Positions 2,192 through 7,526 of a stretch of 60,134 bases of DNA are shown piece by piece (positions within the stretch are counted from its first letter, which is position 1; every line of letters begins with the position of its first letter). The translations under genes were made by a program, and so were the position numbers. The DNA is from a virus. Location: the IMG/VR virus record IMGVR_UViG_3300027365_000001, positions 1 to 60,134 of that record; one strand, written 5' to 3'. Below the pieces are notes generated by a model. The model saw only the letters and a list, made by a program, of their open reading frames with translations. It made no database searches and was not told the origin of the DNA.

Positions 2192-3022
2192 ATGACGAAT
2201 ATCACCCATCCGGCCCTGCTGCAGGCCGAGAACGAGAAGCTGCGCGGGCTGCTGAGCACCGCATGGCGGCTCAGGCCCGATCACGACTATCACGAAGCTA
2301 ACCTGCAAGCCGAGCAGAAGGCGTGGGAAGTTGAGGTCGCAGCAGTGCTGAACGCAGCGGACGCCCTATCCCAGCAGGCCGATCATGTTCGTGACGCCGC
2401 GCAGATGATGGTGCCCTCGAAGATTCTCAAGGCTATCGCATGGGGCGACCGAGACGATGCAGCGAAGGCCATAGGAAGCCTTCGCTGCCTACTTGCTGAC
2501 CCTGAAGGTGAAGACGAAATAGCATTCCCGGACAGCCCGGAGCCAACCGACACCTACACCGCCGTCGACATGGCCACAGCCGCAGCGCAGGGGTTCAGGG
2601 ATGGGCAGGCGGCAGTAGAGCCAGCCCAGGCGCAGGATGAGCGGGAGGCTTTCAACGACGAATACGACCGCATCTGCAACCGCCCGCTGACCATGCGGGA
2701 AATCGCGTGGCGTATGTGGCAGGCCCGAGCCAACCGCCCCGCGCAGACCGAGCAGCAGCCTGCATACGTTGAGTGCCGCGAGTGCACGGACTGCGGTCAT
2801 GTCGGCATTAACGACGCTCACCAGACAGACGCGACGTGCGCGATGTGTGACTGGAGCGGGCCGAGCCCGGTTGAGGATCAGTGCCCTGACTGCGGCACAG
2901 AGAACGTGATGGGAGCGGCCTGCCCTAAATGCAGCGGCCGCTATCGGATTCTGGCCGAGACACACGTTGCCGCCCCCGTCGCGCAGACCGCCCTGCCCAC
3001 CCAAGGAGCCGTCGAGCAATGA
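2192..3022 (+). CDS. hypothetical protein with C-terminal multi-CxxC zinc-ribbon region
   Basis: 276 aa. C-terminus CRECTDCGH...CAMCDW...CPDCG...CPKCSG. RBS GAGGAA. Confidence 0.7.
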   Translation: MTNITHPALLQAENEKLRGLLSTAWRLRPDHDYHEANLQAEQKAWEVEVAAVLNAADALSQQADHVRDAAQMMVPSKILKAIAWGDRDDAAKAIGSLRCLLADPEGEDEIAFPDSPEPTDTYTAVDMATAAAQGFRDGQAAVEPAQAQDEREAFNDEYDRICNRPLTMREIAWRMWQARANRPAQTEQQPAYVECRECTDCGHVGINDAHQTDATCAMCDWSGPSPVEDQCPDCGTENVMGAACPKCSGRYRILAETHVAAPVAQTALPTQGAVEQ

Positions 3023-3645
3023 ACGCCCAGGCACAACGCATGGCCGAGCTCGAGCACAGCCTGCAGGTGGCGCTCGAGCAGGCCAGGAGCTACCAGCGCA
3101 TTGCCCTGCGTGCGAAGCGAGAGGTTGAATCGCTGCAGGCGGAGTGCCAGTCATTGAGGGATCGCGTGGCCGCCCTGGAGAAGGGCGCGCCTCTCATCAA
3201 GGTGACCACCAAGGCGGCGGCCTACACCGCCAGCACCGGCGAGACAGTCCTTGCCGCGTGCCGGAGGATGCACGCCGAGGGTATTGGCATCGAGGCGGCG
3301 GCGCGCGAGATCGGATTCGGCTGCTCGACCGACATGCGCAAGTATTTCACCCGGCGCGGCCTGGAATGCCCATGGCCGCAAAGTGACAAGCACGCCAACC
3401 TGTTTTCCAGAAAGATCACCAACCGCGACATGGAGAGATTTGCCAAGCTGAGGGACAGCGGAGTTCCGACCGACGTTGCCGCCGAGCGCATCGGCTACTC
3501 GCTGCAGGGCATCCAGGAGGCGATCCGAAACAGGCGCCCCGACCTGAAGGGCCGGGGTAAGCGGGCAAACAGCCGAGGAAAGAACGCTCAGCCCTGTTCC
3601 ACGGTCACCGAGACCCTTGCGGTGAGTGCCGCCACCGGTTCGTGA
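3019..3645 (+). CDS. hypothetical coiled-coil protein with two HTH-like segments
   Basis: ATG 3019 overlaps the upstream TGA (ATGA). Translation MNAQAQRMAELEHSLQ... with a heptad-like N-terminus. AAREIGFGCSTDMRKYF and AAERIGYSLQGIQEAI look like HTH recognition units. Confidence 0.65.
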   Translation: MNAQAQRMAELEHSLQVALEQARSYQRIALRAKREVESLQAECQSLRDRVAALEKGAPLIKVTTKAAAYTASTGETVLAACRRMHAEGIGIEAAAREIGFGCSTDMRKYFTRRGLECPWPQSDKHANLFSRKITNRDMERFAKLRDSGVPTDVAAERIGYSLQGIQEAIRNRRPDLKGRGKRANSRGKNAQPCSTVTETLAVSAATGS

Positions 3646-4027: not shown

Positions 4028-4702
4028 CTACTTAGTTGCAGCGACCTTCGGCAGGAGCGCCGATATTGGCTGACCGACCAGTTCCTCGCTGTTCTTGACC
4101 TGCGTGACCCGCAATGTCGGACCCTGGCTGCCGAGCCTCGCCACTTCGCGCGCCTTGGCCTGGTCTCCGATCAGCTGCACTGGATCGTGCCCGCGGTGCC
4201 CGTTCTTTCCGTTCACAGCTTCGCTCTCGCCGATCAGATAGGCCGGATACTCCGTCACTCCGCCAGCGAGCGCATAGGCCCGATACCGCTTGATGAACTC
4301 CAGGCTTGCGAACTCCAGGTCCTTGTTCGATGGCAGGGAGGCCAGCTTGCGCCAGCCGCCCATTTCATCGATCACGCGATGGATGATCGGATCATCGAAA
4401 GCGACGGACTGGTAGTGACCGACCATGCGGATAGCCTTATCGACCTTCGACCAGGTGACCATGGCTCGGTCGCCGGTGGCGCCATCGATCATCCGGATGA
4501 TGTCGGCAGGCTTCGGCGGGAACTGCCCGGCATCAGGGTTCTTGATCCAGGCGCCGAAGGCCTTGCGCACGGCAGGCATGTCGTACTCGATCAGGGCGGA
4601 CCAGTAGAGCTGCATGACTGGCTTGGTCACCTCTCGACCATAGACCGCCATGGTGGCTTCCATGATGGTGGCGAACTCGCGCTTGTCATCAGGATCGATC
4701 AT
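4028..4702 (-). CDS. replication-associated protein (possible helicase-loader-like partner of the initiator); function uncertain
   Basis: 224 aa, ATGA-coupled to the initiator gene upstream. Function is assigned by position only. Confidence 0.7.
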   Translation of the reverse strand: MIDPDDKREFATIMEATMAVYGREVTKPVMQLYWSALIEYDMPAVRKAFGAWIKNPDAGQFPPKPADIIRMIDGATGDRAMVTWSKVDKAIRMVGHYQSVAFDDPIIHRVIDEMGGWRKLASLPSNKDLEFASLEFIKRYRAYALAGGVTEYPAYLIGESEAVNGKNGHRGHDPVQLIGDQAKAREVARLGSQGPTLRVTQVKNSEELVGQPISALLPKVAATK

Positions 4703-5454
4703 TGCCAGTTCCCTCCGTTCACGAACTCTTCTGCCGCCTGGCGATTGCGCTCTTCGATGGCAGCCTGACGGCTGGTCCCGCCCGTTCGACCATTGCTCGC
4801 ACCAGCAGTTCGGTTGATCAGCCAGGCGGCCTTCAGCCCCTGCCAGCCAGCAGCCATAGCTTCAGCCAGCGCATCATCCACCGACCACCCTGCAGCCGCG
4901 GCGATGGTCAACTCTTTCGCCAGTATGTTGATCACGGTCTGCGTGACCGACGCGCGCTTGTCCTTGCGATGCTTCAGGTAGTCAGCCCAGACCTGCTCGC
5001 TAGGCTGCTCTGGGAACCCTGAAAGGTCGAGCTGCGCAGCGGCGCGTTTACTGTTCCCTGTATTATTCTTAGTTGTATTACTCCCCTTCGCCTTTTCCGA
5101 AGGGGGTTCATCGCCTTTTCCGAAGGGGTTCGCGGCATTTTCCGAAGGGGTATTCGGTTTTCCGAAGGGGTCTTTCAGGCGGATGCGCCGCTCGACAATC
5201 CGCTTTCCTTCACGGATCTGCTCGATCTCGACCAGGCCCTTTGCGGCCAGTGCGCTGATGATCTCCGAAACCCTTGAGATGGACAGGCCGAAGAACTCGG
5301 CGAAGTGCGCGTTGCTGGCGTAGCAGCCGCGCTCGTCGTCCTGCAGGCTGCCAATTTCAACCAGCATGACCTTCTCGGTGATGGATAATCCGCGATCCAG
5401 CCATATGTCAGCCGGAATCCAGACGCCCTGGAACTTGCGTGGAGTGGCGGTCAT
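4699..5454 (-). CDS. replication initiator / replisome organizer (winged-helix N-terminus, DnaT-like C-terminus; lambda O analogue)
   Basis: ATG 5454 overlaps the TGA of the upstream methyltransferase. Translation MTATPRKFQGVWIPADIWLDRGLSITEKVMLVEIGSLQDDERGCYASNAHFAEFFGLSISRVSEIISALAAKGLV... The gene contains four iterons. The track start at 5595 only adds G/R-rich sequence. Confidence 0.8.
   Translation of the reverse strand: MTATPRKFQGVWIPADIWLDRGLSITEKVMLVEIGSLQDDERGCYASNAHFAEFFGLSISRVSEIISALAAKGLVEIEQIREGKRIVERRIRLKDPFGKPNTPSENAANPFGKGDEPPSEKAKGSNTTKNNTGNSKRAAAQLDLSGFPEQPSEQVWADYLKHRKDKRASVTQTVINILAKELTIAAAAGWSVDDALAEAMAAGWQGLKAAWLINRTAGASNGRTGGTSRQAAIEERNRQAAEEFVNGGNWQ
5051..5170. repeat. 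putative origin of replication: AT-rich tract plus four 13-bp iterons TTTTCCGAAGGGG inside the initiator gene
   Basis: Exact copies at 5093-5105, 5116-5128, 5138-5150 and 5158-5170, spaced 20-23 bp. An inverted partial copy CCCCTTCG lies at 5083-5090. The tract 5051-5082 (CTGTTCCCTGTATTATTCTTAGTTGTATTACT) is locally AT-rich. This matches the lambda ori-within-O arrangement. Confidence 0.65.
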
Positions 5455-7526
5455 TGCAGCACCTCCACGGCACGCTGAACGCGCTCCCCCACCCAGCGAG
5501 CGACAGGGACCGCCCAGCTGTTGCCGATGGCCTTGTAGCGCGGTCCATCCGGGCATTCGTCGGCTGGCTTGCCCCGCCATGGGATCAGGGTCCACCCGGC
5601 GACCGTTTCAATGCTTATTTCGAATGAACTGCCGCTCTGTATTTGCCCTGGAATGCACGAACAGATGACAGCCGCGACACAGGAGAACAAGGTTTTCCGG
5701 CTCAAGTCGTAGCTCTGGGAACTTTGCTCGACTGCCGATGTGGTGAACTTCAAACAATCGCGCAGGTCTCTTGTGAACCTCTCCGCATCGTTGACAAGTT
5801 CCGCGATCTCGCGCCCAGACAATTGCGCACGCACGTTTCCACTCTGCCGATGAGTAGAACAGATCGTGCTCTGCTGTTCTGCCTCCCCTCCAGCGTGGGT
5901 GGCGATCTCCTCGAACATGTGCATCCTTGCAATCAACTGAGCAAAATCTGCGCGACTGATAGGAAGGTGACACCATTCGCTCTGCTCCGCAGTGCTCACA
6001 GACAAGAGCAACTTTCCTGCACTGTGTATCTGAAGATGCTGCCGCTCTGAGTCGATCAGCACACTCACGAGAACATGTTCGCTTGAGCTTTCCAGGTCTG
6101 CACTCAAACTCCTTTCTGCAGTGCTCGCACAGGACAGAAACTCGCTTTCTTCGGCATGCAAGGCATTGCTTTGCGACCTGAGACTTTTTGCTTCCGCACG
6201 CGCATAGCTCTTTTGATGGCCTGAACATTCATCGGCGCCCCCATCGAATGACACCGACATTGTGAATGTTTTCCTAATCTCAGGAAATCCCTGTAGCCGC
6301 TCGCATTCGATAGGGGTCAGGCGGCGGACGGCTGAGCCCTGAAGCACGCCGTTATGGCGACGAGGACCGTTATTGGCATCCAGGGTGGCATGTGCTTCAC
6401 CGAGCCGAACGCCCGACTGGCTGGACTGGAAAGCAGCAACGATCGGCTGCCCGCGCCCAGTGCCGTCTTCGCTTGCGTCGAAGCCTTCAGCCTTCAACGT
6501 GTGGGCGATGTCGCCCGTGACGCAGACGGCGTTCTCGCCGCCGCTATTCCGGCCAAGCGCGAACGCAGTGCTGGTACTGACGCACGGGTCTTGCGTGCCG
6601 TGCACCACCAGCAGGCCGCTTTCCTCATCCTGCTGTGTGGCGCTGCCGGCTGCTTTGCCGTTGGCCTGGAGCGTGCCGGCCACCACAAAAGTCTCGCTCT
6701 CGAAGTCGCCGTGACCTGTTCCGCCCTTTGCTCGGCAGGCGGTTGCAACGTCGATTGGGCCGGCCTGATTGTTCCCGCCGAAAGCGATCAGGTGTCCTGC
6801 CCGGGCGTGGTCGACATCACTGCCGCCTTGAGTGCTTCGGAGAGTGCCGGCGGCAGCGTCTTGCCCCTCGCCTCGGCGCGGCGGAGTATCCCGGCGCACG
6901 CCGTCGCGCTCAAAAAGTACCGATGCGGGATCGAACCCTTCTCGAGCACTTGCCACAACGAACACACGGCGGCGCCGTTGGGCCAGGCCGAAATATTGGG
7001 CGTCAAGAATCCTCCACGCGACTGCTCTTTTGGGTCCATACACACAACCAGCGTCCGTCCACCGCTTCCCTGAAGGCTGCAGTTCGCAGTCTTCCCCAGC
7101 AAGCGCGCCAAGAAAGCATCCGAAGGCGTTCCCTTTGTCGGATAGGACGCCGGGGACGTTTTCCCAGATGACGATGGAAGCGGCTTCGCCACGGCTGTTT
7201 CGAACATGATCAATTGCATCAGCAAGCTCCACGAATTTTATGGTCAGTTCGCCGCGCGGGTCGTTCAGGCCTTCACGCATGCCGGCGACGGAAAATGCCT
7301 GGCAAGGTGTTCCGCCAGTCAAAATATCTGGTGCCGCAATCGAACCAGTCAGGACACTCTTAGAAAGCGCAGTCATGTCGCCTAGGTTCTCCACTTCAGG
7401 GAAACGGTGCGCCAGTACAGCGCTTGGGAATGGCTCTATCTCGGCGAACCATGCGGCCTTCCAGCCGATAGGTTCCCATGCCACGCTCGCAGCTTCGATG
7501 CCGCTGCATACGCTGCCGAACTTCAC
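5451..7526 (-). CDS. DNA (cytosine-5) methyltransferase carrying a 227-codon in-frame insertion between motifs IX and X
   Basis: GTG start at 7526 overlaps the Dam stop. Motif I is GSVCSGIEA, motif IV GGTPCQAFS, motif VI VIWENVPG, motif VIII QRRRRVF and motif IX RRLTPIECERLQGFPE. About 227 aa of S-rich sequence follow, then GWTLIPW...PDGPRYKAIGNSWAVPV (motif X). Confidence 0.85.
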   Translation of the reverse strand: MKFGSVCSGIEAASVAWEPIGWKAAWFAEIEPFPSAVLAHRFPEVENLGDMTALSKSVLTGSIAAPDILTGGTPCQAFSVAGMREGLNDPRGELTIKFVELADAIDHVRNSRGEAASIVIWENVPGVLSDKGNAFGCFLGALAGEDCELQPSGKRWTDAGCVYGPKRAVAWRILDAQYFGLAQRRRRVFVVASAREGFDPASVLFERDGVRRDTPPRRGEGQDAAAGTLRSTQGGSDVDHARAGHLIAFGGNNQAGPIDVATACRAKGGTGHGDFESETFVVAGTLQANGKAAGSATQQDEESGLLVVHGTQDPCVSTSTAFALGRNSGGENAVCVTGDIAHTLKAEGFDASEDGTGRGQPIVAAFQSSQSGVRLGEAHATLDANNGPRRHNGVLQGSAVRRLTPIECERLQGFPEIRKTFTMSVSFDGGADECSGHQKSYARAEAKSLRSQSNALHAEESEFLSCASTAERSLSADLESSSEHVLVSVLIDSERQHLQIHSAGKLLLSVSTAEQSEWCHLPISRADFAQLIARMHMFEEIATHAGGEAEQQSTICSTHRQSGNVRAQLSGREIAELVNDAERFTRDLRDCLKFTTSAVEQSSQSYDLSRKTLFSCVAAVICSCIPGQIQSGSSFEISIETVAGWTLIPWRGKPADECPDGPRYKAIGNSWAVPVARWVGERVQRAVEVLQ
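5608..6228 (-). CDS. HNH endonuclease (206 aa) nested in an alternative frame inside the methyltransferase insertion
   Basis: Several CxxC pairs (CACG..CLAC, CEHC..CSREC, CEHCG..CSVDC). HNH core reads CQRCGEVHKRPARLFEVHHIGSRAKFPELRLEPENLVLLCRGCHLFVH. Local G+C is clearly lower than in the flanks. Confidence 0.8.
   Translation of the reverse strand: MFRPSKELCACGSKKSQVAKQCLACRRKRVSVLCEHCRKEFECRPGKLKRTCSRECADRLRAAASSDTQCRKVALVCEHCGAERMVSPSYQSRRFCSVDCKDAHVRGDRHPRWRGGRTAEHDLFYSSAEWKRACAIVWARDRGTCQRCGEVHKRPARLFEVHHIGSRAKFPELRLEPENLVLLCRGCHLFVHSRANTERQFIRNKH

What the first reader, a model, noticed from the sequence alone, without database searches (positions are those of the whole stretch)
5598..6278. 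HNH endonuclease gene nested out of frame within an ORF-preserving 681-nt insertion in the C5 methyltransferase
The methyltransferase reads ...RRLTPIECERLQGFPE (motif IX), then 227 codons of S-rich sequence, then GWTLIPWRGKPADECPDGPRYKAIGNSWAVPV (motif X). Deleting 5598-6278 restores the canonical QGFP-E/D-GW junction. The inserted block has visibly lower G+C. In a different frame of the same strand it contains a complete 206-aa HNH endonuclease (5608-6228) with several zinc-ribbon CxxC pairs and a CQRCG...HHI...N...CRGCH core. Only about 50 nt (5' side) and 10 nt (3' side) of the insertion lie outside the HNH ORF. That leaves no room for a group I or II intron core. The insert translation has no intein termini: no Cys/Ser at its start and no His-Asn plus Cys/Ser/Thr at its end. 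The host frame nevertheless stays open through all 227 codons. Only about 11 HNH codons end in TA or TG, the only contexts that can create a stop in the methyltransferase frame, so I estimate chance read-through at a few percent. Either the mobile endonuclease was selected to keep the host ORF open, giving a loop insertion between motifs IX and X, or the enzyme is crippled. Neither matches the usual intron, intein or free-standing modes of homing endonuclease residence.
Basis: partly seen in the sequence, partly recalled or inferred. Interest (0 to 1): 0.8.

Follow-up and report, generated by a model that had tools for sequence, protein, structure and literature searches.

The report
Hidden HNH endonuclease inside phage methyltransferase
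A phage cytosine-methyltransferase gene carries a 681-base mobile insert that encodes a homing-type HNH nuclease in one reading frame and stays stop-free in the methyltransferase frame; this arrangement was first described in 2025 for mycobacteriophages and turns out here to be a large, selected, previously uncatalogued family.

Summary
The C5 methyltransferase ORF (5451-7526) is interrupted between motif IX (QGFPE) and motif X by 681 nt (5598-6278). A complete 206-aa HNH ORF (5608-6228) lies in the third frame of the insert.

The open host frame is only weakly unlikely in this window alone (P = 0.05-0.13). It is decisive in the family. All 52 related viral loci were found through the HNH frame. 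Their GC ranges from 28 to 64% and their HNH identity from 35 to 99%. Every one has motifs IX and X in one frame with zero stops. The other frame has 3-34 stops, and free-standing relatives have 1-17.

No intron or intein signature was found. A 92.7% identical empty allele exists. HNH and host distances are decoupled.

This is the same kind of element as the "ShiLan domain" hidden HNH (Arsenault et al. 2025, PMC11855218). It differs in host superfamily (PF00145, not PF01555), HNH family (PF01844, not PF13392) and insertion site.

The parts
5451..7526 (-). Full read-through ORF of the C5 DNA methyltransferase (691 aa, GTG start), including the insert
   Evidence: PF00145, 7e-34. Motif IV (PCQ), motif VI (ENVPG), motif VIII (QRRRR), motif IX and motif X are all present.
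6279..7526 (-). Upstream host segment, codons 1-416. It holds the catalytic domain, the variable target-recognition region and motif IX, and ends in ...ECERLQGFPE.
   Evidence: Its end aligns to M.HhaI residues 270-287.
5598..6278 (-). The 681-nt (227-codon) insertion. It has no stops in the host frame and lower GC (0.526 against 0.628).
   Evidence: It is absent from P0007, P0009, P0013 and P0025 and from the empty-site loci L083 and L085.
6229..6278 (-). 50-nt leader of the insert, coding only in the host frame (IRKTFTMSVSFDGGAD). In the family its first ~10 codons follow the pattern [IV]-x-K-x-h-x-I-x-V. AF2 predicts them as a beta strand (417-426).
6238..6242 (-). GGGGG run 9 nt upstream of the HNH ATG, a plausible Shine-Dalgarno sequence for internal initiation
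   Evidence: About a third of related loci carry GGAG, GAGG or AGGA at -10 to -14.
5608..6228 (-). HNH endonuclease ORF (206 aa plus stop) in the third frame of the host. It has three N-terminal CxxC...CxxxC zinc modules and a C-terminal CQRCG...HH...N...CRGCH core.
5598..5607 (-). 10-nt trailer between the HNH stop and the host sequence. With the overlapping HNH 3' end it encodes the host-frame SSFEISIETVA, predicted as a beta strand (635-643).
5451..5597 (-). Downstream host segment, codons 644-691 plus stop. It reads GWTLIPWRGKPADECPDGPRYKAIGNSWAVPV... (motif X) and is in phase with the upstream segment.

Best explanation
This is a frame-preserving, overprinted homing-endonuclease element of the 'hidden HNH' (ShiLan-domain) kind, sitting in the hinge of a phage C5 DNA methyltransferase.

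Shown:
- A mobile 681-nt cassette lies between the codon after QGFP and the G(Y/W)T codons.
- Nearly all of it encodes an intact zinc-finger HNH nuclease in the host's -1 (third) frame.
- Its length is a multiple of three.
- Its codon choices avoid the NTA|R and NTG|A contexts that would create stops in the host frame.

Inferred:
- Ribosomes translating the methyltransferase read straight through. They make a 691-aa enzyme with a 227-aa passenger segment looped out between motifs IX and X.
- The conserved first and last ~10 residues may form beta strands that bring the ends of the insert together. The enzyme would then stay active without RNA or protein splicing.
- The HNH is made from the same mRNA by internal initiation at its own ATG, here 9 nt downstream of a GGGGG run.
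- The HNH cuts insert-free alleles at the conserved motif IX/X junction. Recombinational repair then copies the cassette in (homing).
For: Anatomy and HNH identity.

The block is an insertion:
- Uninterrupted homologues have QGFPD|GYT.
- Filled allele L084 and empty allele L083 are 92.7% identical over the aligned parts of the gene. They are 96% and 95% identical immediately beside the insert.

Selection for an open host frame:
- 52 of 52 loci found through the HNH frame have zero stops in the host frame. The other frame has 3-34 stops. GC ranges 0.28-0.64.
- Summed log10 P(no stop) under synonymous shuffles is -11.9 for 8 lineages below 50% identity. It is -45 for 31 lineages below 70% identity.
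- With host codon usage, 1.5-9.8 stops are expected per locus.
- 29 of the 30 more distant relatives in that scan (L051-L081), matched only in the HNH C-terminal half, have 1-17 stops in that frame. L052 and L053 were seen to lie just upstream of a methyltransferase gene. The thirtieth, L049, is itself nested.
- The window shows a context-dependent codon bias, p = 0.012.

The HNH is the frame under amino-acid selection:
- Substitutions at HNH codon position 3 are about twice those at positions 1 and 2.
- HNH identity is 0.58-0.77 where host-frame identity is 0.33-0.50.
- All 7 alleles ascertained through the methyltransferase frame have an intact HNH ORF.

The host gene is maintained: motif X is in phase, with invariant R, Y, G and N in 27 filled alleles.

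Mobility: HNH and host catalytic-domain distances are nearly uncorrelated (Pearson 0.23, Spearman -0.20). For L017 versus L025 the host differs by 12% and the HNH by 58%.

No splicing machinery was detected.

Abundance: 243 clusters at 50% identity carry the host-frame peptide.

Precedent: the same logic and the same relative frame occur in ShiLan gp65.
Against: - Nothing here is experimental. Methyltransferase activity of the 691-aa protein, HNH expression, cleavage specificity and homing are all inferred.
- The AF2 model of the full protein is poor in the insert (pLDDT 28-74). I could not check whether the two terminal strands pair.
- About two thirds of related loci lack a recognisable Shine-Dalgarno sequence before the HNH ATG. 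The mode of HNH translation is therefore open.
- The host-frame peptide is not enriched in hydrophilic or disorder-type residues relative to expectation. A 'designed flexible linker' is not supported.
- An open frame is predicted equally by protein-level removal of the insert.
Confidence: 0.72

Rival explanations
1. The insert is removed after translation by a non-canonical protein-splicing or proteolytic mechanism. The open frame would then be needed only to reach the C-terminal segment.
For: - The open, in-phase host frame is exactly what an intein-like element requires.
- The leader and trailer peptides are conserved and predicted as strands.
- Inteins whose homing endonuclease is encoded out of frame have been reported in actinophages (bioRxiv 10.1101/2025.01.02.630785).
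Against: - There is no Cys, Ser or Thr at the insert's N-terminus. Position 1 is I or V, after E or D.
- There is no His-Asn at its end.
- Only ~16 and ~3 codons lie outside the HNH ORF.
- The host-frame peptide gives no Pfam hit. A 27-sequence profile gives no PDB hit better than E = 1.1.
- The host-frame peptide evolves much faster than the HNH frame. This fits poorly with a catalytic fold.
Confidence: 0.07
2. The insert is an unrecognised self-splicing or host-spliced intron whose RNA core overlaps the HNH ORF.
For: - HNH genes commonly live in phage group I introns (established knowledge).
- Rfam models can miss degenerate cores.
Against: - A permissive Rfam scan of 5300-6600 finds no intron family.
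- 20 related loci give no match at gathering thresholds.
- Only 60 nt lie outside the ORF.
- An intron has no need for a length that is a multiple of three, or for a stop-free host frame. Both hold in 52 of 52 loci down to 28% GC.
Confidence: 0.04
3. The methyltransferase is inactivated by the insert. The frame would stay open for another reason, such as avoiding premature termination and polarity on downstream early genes, or coupling ribosome traffic to HNH expression. The intact flanking segments would reflect recent invasion.
For: - Phage orphan methyltransferases are often dispensable, as argued for ShiLan in PMC11855218.
- HNH and host histories are decoupled, so many invasions may be young.
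- No activity data exist.
Against: - Filled alleles that differ by 30-47% in both the HNH and the catalytic domain still keep every catalytic motif.
- They also keep motif X in phase.
- The insert sits at the position equivalent to M.HhaI D287/S288. By my recollection this lies in the inter-domain hinge, a plausible permissive site.
Confidence: 0.12
4. Chance: a free-standing HNH gene landed in the gene and the host frame happens to be open.
For: For this window alone P(no stop) is 0.05-0.13.
Against: - The joint probability over independent lineages is 1e-12 to 1e-45.
- 29 of the 30 more distant relatives have stops.
- The codon-context bias in the window has p = 0.012.
Confidence: 0.01

Closest known systems
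ShiLan domain / hidden out-of-frame HNH in Mycobacterium phage ShiLan gp65 methylase (Gosselin et al. 2023, PMC9957025; Arsenault, Gosselin & Gogarten 2025, PMC11855218)
   Same: - The insertion sits at a conserved site of a phage DNA methyltransferase.
- Its length is a multiple of three, with no stop in the host frame.
- Almost the whole insert is an HNH ORF (195 aa there, 206 aa here) in the third frame of the host.
- The nuclease carries FCS-type zinc fingers and a shared NPxW(R/K)GG linker.
- It shows a patchy distribution with decoupled phylogeny, and no intron or intein signature.
- Function has not been tested experimentally.
   Different: - The host is an N6/N4 amino-methyltransferase (PF01555) there, and a C5 methyltransferase (PF00145) here.
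- The nuclease core is HNH_3 (PF13392) placed centrally there. Here it is HNH (PF01844) at the C-terminus.
- Similarity is only 29% over 133 aa, mainly in the zinc fingers.
- The insertion site differs: ALKP|SFEP there, QGFPD|GYT here.
- ShiLan has a GTG start 18 nt into the insert and no ribosome-binding site. Here there is an ATG 50 nt in, with an upstream GGGGG run.
- ShiLan elements are known from about a dozen mycobacteriophages. This family spans 28-64% GC and at least 243 protein clusters.
- tblastn of the window HNH against 50,697 phage records gave only three hits at E <= 1e-8, the best at 32% identity over 78% of the query.
Pacc40 gp60 helicase-methylase with a different hidden HNH-like ORF (PMC11855218)
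   Same: It is an out-of-frame nuclease ORF inside an in-frame insertion of a phage methylase. Related nucleases occur free-standing just upstream of methylase genes in other phages. I saw the same for relatives L052 and L053.
   Different: The host protein, insertion site and nuclease (160 aa, weakly HNH/AP2-like) all differ.
Inteins with a homing endonuclease encoded out of frame or antisense (bioRxiv 10.1101/2025.01.02.630785)
   Same: The host frame is kept open across a region whose real coding content lies in another frame.
   Different: Those elements keep canonical in-frame HINT splicing domains on both sides. Here no splicing domain exists or fits.
Free-standing homing endonucleases that split a host gene ('genes in pieces', e.g. 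mobE in Aeromonas phage Aeh1 nrdA; from my own knowledge, not checked here)
   Same: An intronless, inteinless homing-endonuclease gene sits inside a conserved host gene that remains functional.
   Different: There the host gene becomes two separate ORFs whose products assemble. Here the host ORF is continuous, and the endonuclease is overprinted on it.
Group I intron-encoded HNH endonucleases (I-HmuI, I-TevIII; established knowledge)
   Same: An HNH homing nuclease interrupts a conserved phage gene at a conserved motif.
   Different: These need a ~200-nt or longer ribozyme core and RNA splicing. No frame or length constraint applies to the insert.

Membership tests
Frame-preserving hidden-HNH insertion elements of phage methylases (ShiLan-domain kind) | Insertion at a conserved site of a phage DNA methyltransferase gene, absent from close homologues | tested here: met
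   Empty alleles are P0007, P0009, P0013 and P0025. L083 and L084 are 92.7% identical outside the insert.
Frame-preserving hidden-HNH insertion elements of phage methylases (ShiLan-domain kind) | Insert length is a multiple of three and has no stop codon in the host frame | tested here: met
   The window insert is 681 nt with 0 stops. 52 of 52 related loci have 0 stops.
Frame-preserving hidden-HNH insertion elements of phage methylases (ShiLan-domain kind) | A complete HNH endonuclease ORF with zinc fingers fills nearly the whole insert, in the third frame of the host | tested here: met
   The same frame offset (+2) occurs in ShiLan, L049 and BUCT618.
Frame-preserving hidden-HNH insertion elements of phage methylases (ShiLan-domain kind) | No detectable intron or intein machinery | tested here: met
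Frame-preserving hidden-HNH insertion elements of phage methylases (ShiLan-domain kind) | Distribution and phylogeny indicate horizontal spread between divergent host alleles | tested here: met
   (Pearson 0.23, Spearman -0.20, with discordant pairs). Inserts occur in methyltransferases with different target-recognition regions.
ShiLan domain proper (sequence family) | Sequence homology of the insert or HNH to ShiLan gp65, and the same host family and site (PF01555, ALKP|SFEP) | tested here: not met
   The only similarity is in the zinc fingers (29% over 133 aa). The Pfam families of nuclease and host differ. tblastn of this HNH against phage records does not retrieve ShiLan-type phages.
Group I intron carrying a homing-endonuclease ORF | Ribozyme core (P3-P9) detectable, with room for it outside or around the ORF | tested here: not met
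   No Rfam intron match was found at E <= 10 in the window. None was found at gathering score in 20 loci. Only 60 nt lie outside the ORF.
Group I intron carrying a homing-endonuclease ORF | RNA splicing restores the host ORF | not testable with these tools
   This needs RT-PCR or RNA-seq. The conserved open host frame argues against it.
Intein | HINT splicing blocks, N-terminal Cys/Ser, and C-terminal His-Asn followed by Cys/Ser/Thr | tested here: not met
   The insert starts with I or V and ends in ...VA|G...SH|G or ...TP|Y. There is no Pfam hit and no PDB profile hit.
Free-standing HEG splitting a gene into two ORFs | The host gene is broken into separately translated pieces, with a stop after the first piece and a start for the second | tested here: not met
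   The ORF is continuous over 691 codons. The same holds in all relatives.
HNH endonuclease (PF01844) | beta-beta-alpha-metal core with His, Asn and His residues and flanking CxxC zinc ligands | tested here: met
   PF01844 matches at 5.5e-10. C145, C148, H162/H163, N179, C187 and H188 are invariant or nearly so in 18 homologues, and C184 is present in the window. The fold matches 5H0M.
C5 DNA methyltransferase (PF00145) | Motifs I, IV (PCQ), VI (ENV), VIII (QRR), IX and X in the canonical order | tested here: met
   Catalytic activity was not tested.

The most novel reading that the evidence does not exclude
The 227-residue host-frame peptide is not a tolerated by-product. It would be a selected polypeptide in its own right: about 620 nt of true dual-coding sequence. 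Its conserved terminal strands and partly structured interior would form a dedicated 'clamp' module that substitutes for splicing. Alternatively it could be excised by a chemistry unrelated to HINT inteins. Related nucleases occupy the same -1 frame at four or more other sites in amino-methyltransferases: ShiLan, Pacc40, L049 and BUCT618. Together these would define a general fourth lifestyle of homing endonucleases, beside introns, inteins and free-standing genes.
Probability: 0.15. Interest if true: 0.85.

Novelty: new member of a known kind. Interest (0 to 1): 0.6.

Why it matters
Homing endonucleases are thought to persist in essential or useful genes only by hiding in a self-splicing intron or intein, or by sitting between genes. 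This element does neither. It appears to pay for its residence by encoding, in the host's frame, a stop-free passenger segment.

The 2025 description rested on a handful of mycobacteriophage sequences and gave no statistics. This window adds three things.
- The same solution evolved, or spread, in a different methyltransferase superfamily and with a different HNH family.
- It is common in uncultured phages, with at least 243 protein clusters.
- The open host frame is under selection from 28% to 64% GC.

There is also a practical consequence. Gene callers either fuse or miss these nucleases, so only 17 HNH proteins were called against 243 read-through clusters. Many long 'methyltransferases' in databases therefore hide a nuclease gene.

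If the 691-aa enzyme is active, the motif IX/X hinge is a natural permissive site for large insertions in C5 methyltransferases.

Tried and rejected
- A permissive Rfam scan of the window region gave only two chance miRNA-like hits. A scan of 20 related loci gave no intron.
- Pfam on the host-frame peptide of 27 loci, and a profile search against all PDB sequences, gave nothing below E = 1.
- DNA and tblastn searches of 50,697 phage records gave only three HNH hits at E <= 1e-8, the best at 32% identity. DNA matches were confined to the host flanks.
- The genome-contig scan with the HNH alignment failed for lack of a conserved stretch.
- The word-indexed protein search with the 227-aa insert found only one hit. 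The exhaustive HMMER search found 243.
- Hypothesis: the HNH wobble positions are tuned to give a hydrophilic, disordered linker. Rejected. The hydrophobic fraction of the host-frame peptide is equal to or higher than expected from host codon usage in most loci.
- Hypothesis: a -1 frameshift in the A-rich leader makes a methyltransferase-HNH fusion. Not supported for this window. The HNH frame has stops between the junction and the ATG, the last being a TGA directly abutting the ATG. The A-run is also absent from some lineages.
- A search for an internal sigma-70 promoter found none.
- The ShiLan feature that the insert's 5' end resembles the 3' flank is not evident here (by eye only).
Full report
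**1. What is in the window**

All features are on the minus strand. ORF 5451-7526 (691 aa, GTG start) is a C5 DNA methyltransferase (PF00145, 7e-34). It carries motif IV (GTPCQAFS), motif VI (ENVPG), motif VIII (QRRRRVF), motif IX (RRLTPIECERLQGFP) and motif X (GNSWAVPV).

After QGFPE(416) come 227 codons (6278-5598). These are absent from uninterrupted homologues, which read QGFPD-GYT or QGFPD-DYT.

A 206-aa ORF (6228-5608) lies inside this block.
- It matches PF01844 HNH at 5.5e-10.
- It has three CxxC...CxxxC zinc modules and a CQRCG...HH...N...CRGCH core.
- These residues are invariant or nearly so in 17 database homologues.
- It folds with mean pLDDT 86.9.
- Its best PDB match is the phage GVE2 HNH nuclease, 5H0M.

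The HNH ORF is in the third frame of the host, since 1298 = 3x432+2. Fifty nt of the insert precede its ATG and 10 nt follow its stop. Insert GC is 0.526 against 0.628 for the rest of the gene.

**2. Is the open host frame more than chance?**

For this window alone the case is only marginal.
- Synonymous shuffling within the HNH gene leaves the host frame open in 13% of trials.
- Redrawing codons from the host's usage does so in 5% of trials, with 2.4 stops expected.
- Leu/Val codons followed by a purine never end in A or G (0 of 9). Those followed by a pyrimidine do so in 9 of 18 (p = 0.012). The flanking exon shows no such bias and has 12 stops in the corresponding frame over 416 codons.

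The comparative evidence is decisive.
- I scanned IMG/VR with a motif from the HNH frame. That ascertainment is blind to the host frame.
- It returned 80 loci. In all 52 with a near-full-length relative, the HNH lies between ECERLQGFP and YKALGNS-type motifs.
- Those 52 span 35-99% HNH identity and GC 0.28-0.64. The two motifs share one frame (HNH +1), with zero stops between them. The remaining frame has 3-34 stops.
- Summed log10 P(no stop) is -11.9 for 8 lineages below 50% identity. It is -45 for 31 lineages below 70% identity.
- 29 of the 30 more distant relatives in the same scan, matched only in the HNH C-terminal half, carry 1-17 stops in that frame. L052 and L053 lie just upstream of a methyltransferase gene. 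The thirtieth, L049, is itself nested (section 7).
- An exhaustive HMMER search with the 227-aa host-frame peptide finds 243 clusters at 50% identity, 125 of them at E <= 1e-10. Gene callers had annotated only 17 HNH proteins.

**3. Which frame is selected, and is the element mobile?**

- Between diverged pairs, substitutions at HNH codon position 3 are about twice those at positions 1 and 2. HNH identity is 0.58-0.77 where host-frame identity is 0.33-0.50. The HNH is therefore the frame under amino-acid selection. The host frame is mainly kept stop-free.
- Seven alleles ascertained through the methyltransferase frame all have an intact HNH ORF.
- The portions coded only, or mainly, by the host frame are conserved as alternating hydrophobic patterns. 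The first ~10 codons follow [IV]-x-K-x-h-x-I-x-V. The last ~10 follow S-[FY]-x-[IL]-x-[IVL]-E-[VT]. Variation at all codon positions preserves residue type.
- AF2 predicts both ends as strands, 417-426 and 635-643, at pLDDT around 60-70. Much of the interior is below 50. I could not inspect whether they pair.
- A filled allele (L084, P0004) and an empty allele (L083, P0013) are 92.7% identical over the aligned parts of the gene. They are 96% and 95% identical right beside the insert. This places the junction at CCN-GA|C GGC|TAC-ACC.
- Inserts occur in methyltransferases with unrelated target-recognition regions.
- HNH distance and host catalytic-domain distance are almost uncorrelated (Pearson 0.23, Spearman -0.20). 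L017 and L025 differ by 12% in the host domain and 58% in the HNH.
- This is the pattern expected of homing into a highly conserved target. The ECERLQGFP-coding DNA is nearly invariant.

**4. What it is not**

- A permissive Rfam scan of 5300-6600 and a scan of 20 related loci find no intron family. Only 60 nt lie outside the ORF. An intron would also not need a stop-free, in-phase insert.
- The host-frame peptide has no Pfam hit. A 27-sequence profile has no PDB match below E = 1.
- It starts with I or V and lacks a terminal His-Asn. It is therefore not a canonical intein.
- The host gene is not split into two ORFs.
- No internal promoter-like site was found.

**5. How it most likely works**

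- Inferred: the methyltransferase is translated through the insert and carries a 227-aa loop. The loop sits at the position equivalent to M.HhaI D287/S288 (alignment). By my recollection of the M.HhaI structure, this lies in the hinge between the small and large domains.
- Every catalytic motif, and an in-phase motix X, persist in filled alleles that differ by 30-47% in both parts. This argues that the interrupted enzyme is still useful.
- Inferred: the HNH is made by internal initiation. In this window a GGGGG run lies 9 nt upstream of the ATG (6242-6238). About a third of relatives have GGAG, GAGG or AGGA at -10 to -14, and the rest have none.
- The host frame is HNH +1. In that frame a stop needs T at HNH codon position 2 followed by a specific context. 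Only 0.6-5.4 stops are expected there, against the 3-34 observed in the other frame. It is the cheapest frame to keep open.
- That may explain why ShiLan, L049 and BUCT618 use the same offset.

**6. Comparison with the literature**

- The same kind of element was reported as the 'ShiLan domain' of mycobacteriophage methylases (PMC9957025). In 2025 it was recognised as a hidden out-of-frame HNH (PMC11855218). A genome announcement (PMC12613952) notes one more case.
- I retrieved ShiLan gp65. Its host is a PF01555 N6/N4 methyltransferase and its nuclease is an HNH_3 (PF13392) flanked by FCS zinc fingers.
- Similarity to the present HNH is limited to a zinc finger plus an NPxWRGG linker, 29% over 133 aa.
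- The present element therefore shares the defining architecture but not the sequence family, host superfamily or site.
- tblastn of the window HNH against 50,697 phage records gave only three hits at E <= 1e-8, the best at 32% identity over 78% of the query.
- I found no paper describing this arrangement in C5 methyltransferases. Subscription-only literature was not searched.

**7. Extensions noticed**

- L049 carries a PF01844 HNH nested in the third frame of a 674-codon PF01555 methyltransferase, at yet another site.
- Escherichia phage BUCT618 has an annotated 'site-specific DNA-methyltransferase' that hides a 201-aa zinc-finger HNH, again in the third frame.
- Hidden HNH genes thus look like a general feature of phage methyltransferase genes.

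**8. Verdict**

The single-window statistic is weak, and the phenomenon has a 2023/2025 precedent.
- Novelty: new member of a known kind.
- Interest is moderate to high. The kind is recent, experimentally untested and little known. This window opens a much larger family with clear evidence of selection on the overprinted frame.
- Confidence that it belongs to this kind is about 0.85-0.9. Confidence in the full mechanism (retained loop, active enzyme, internal initiation, homing) is about 0.7.

Noticed in passing
window 5088-5170 (+ strand coordinates): Four 18-nt direct repeats (TCGCCTTTTCCGAAGGGG and variants) spaced 20-23 nt apart. They lie inside the minus-strand ORF 4699-5454, which has an HTH_36 domain. 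The 5' end of that ORF (window 5300-5440) is ~80% identical in DNA to the replication-initiation genes of Burkholderia phage Bcep22 and Pseudomonas phage Skulduggery. This looks like an iteron-type origin embedded in the initiator gene, directly downstream of the methyltransferase.
   Followed up: partly
L049 2456-4477 (IMGVR_UViG_3300043410_001333): A 186-aa PF01844 HNH ORF (2743-3300) is nested in the third frame of a 674-codon PF01555 N6/N4 methyltransferase ORF, with no stop in the host frame. The insertion lies between SPPYFGLRSY and EIGLEPTP. This is a further insertion site for the same HNH family in a different methyltransferase superfamily.
   Followed up: partly
L086 1007-2869 (Escherichia phage BUCT618, OM735461.1 36396-38258): The annotated 'site-specific DNA-methyltransferase' (PF01555-like, DPPY...GSGFPKS|insert|KAIDKAAGAEREV) contains an unannotated 201-aa zinc-finger HNH ORF at 1420-2025, in the third frame. 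It is a cultured E. coli phage that could serve as an experimental model.
   Followed up: partly
L051 about 2800-3600: An HNH relative is flanked on both sides by near-duplicate coding sequence for the N-terminus of a PF01555-type methyltransferase: GDCLDILPTLPEKSVQCVVT upstream and GDCLKILPTLPENSVQCVVTSPPYY downstream. This may be a target-site or exon duplication left by an insertion event.
   Followed up: no
L017, L028, L047 (start of the HNH-frame ORF): In some loci the HNH frame stays open upstream into the host's motif IX. The ATG inside GA-ATG-CGA (the codons for E-C-E) could then serve as an alternative start, so the nuclease ORF would begin in host sequence.
   Followed up: no
P0137: One database protein starts as the HNH (MLFRPAKHQCACG...) and switches after ~120 residues into the methyltransferase-frame peptide (...SSQNYEQILQTLFYCVSTV...). 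It is either a frameshifted, decaying HNH or an assembly error. It is the only possible degenerate copy seen.
   Followed up: no
Supplement of PMC9957025 (Tarkin_98, Tasp14_61): These mycobacteriophage PF01555 methylases carry a further ~230-aa insertion after GSGFPKS (SASIYKQTIKTLEERYG...CSWCGLPDADW...). This is the same position as the BUCT618 insert. Its other frames were not examined.
   Followed up: no
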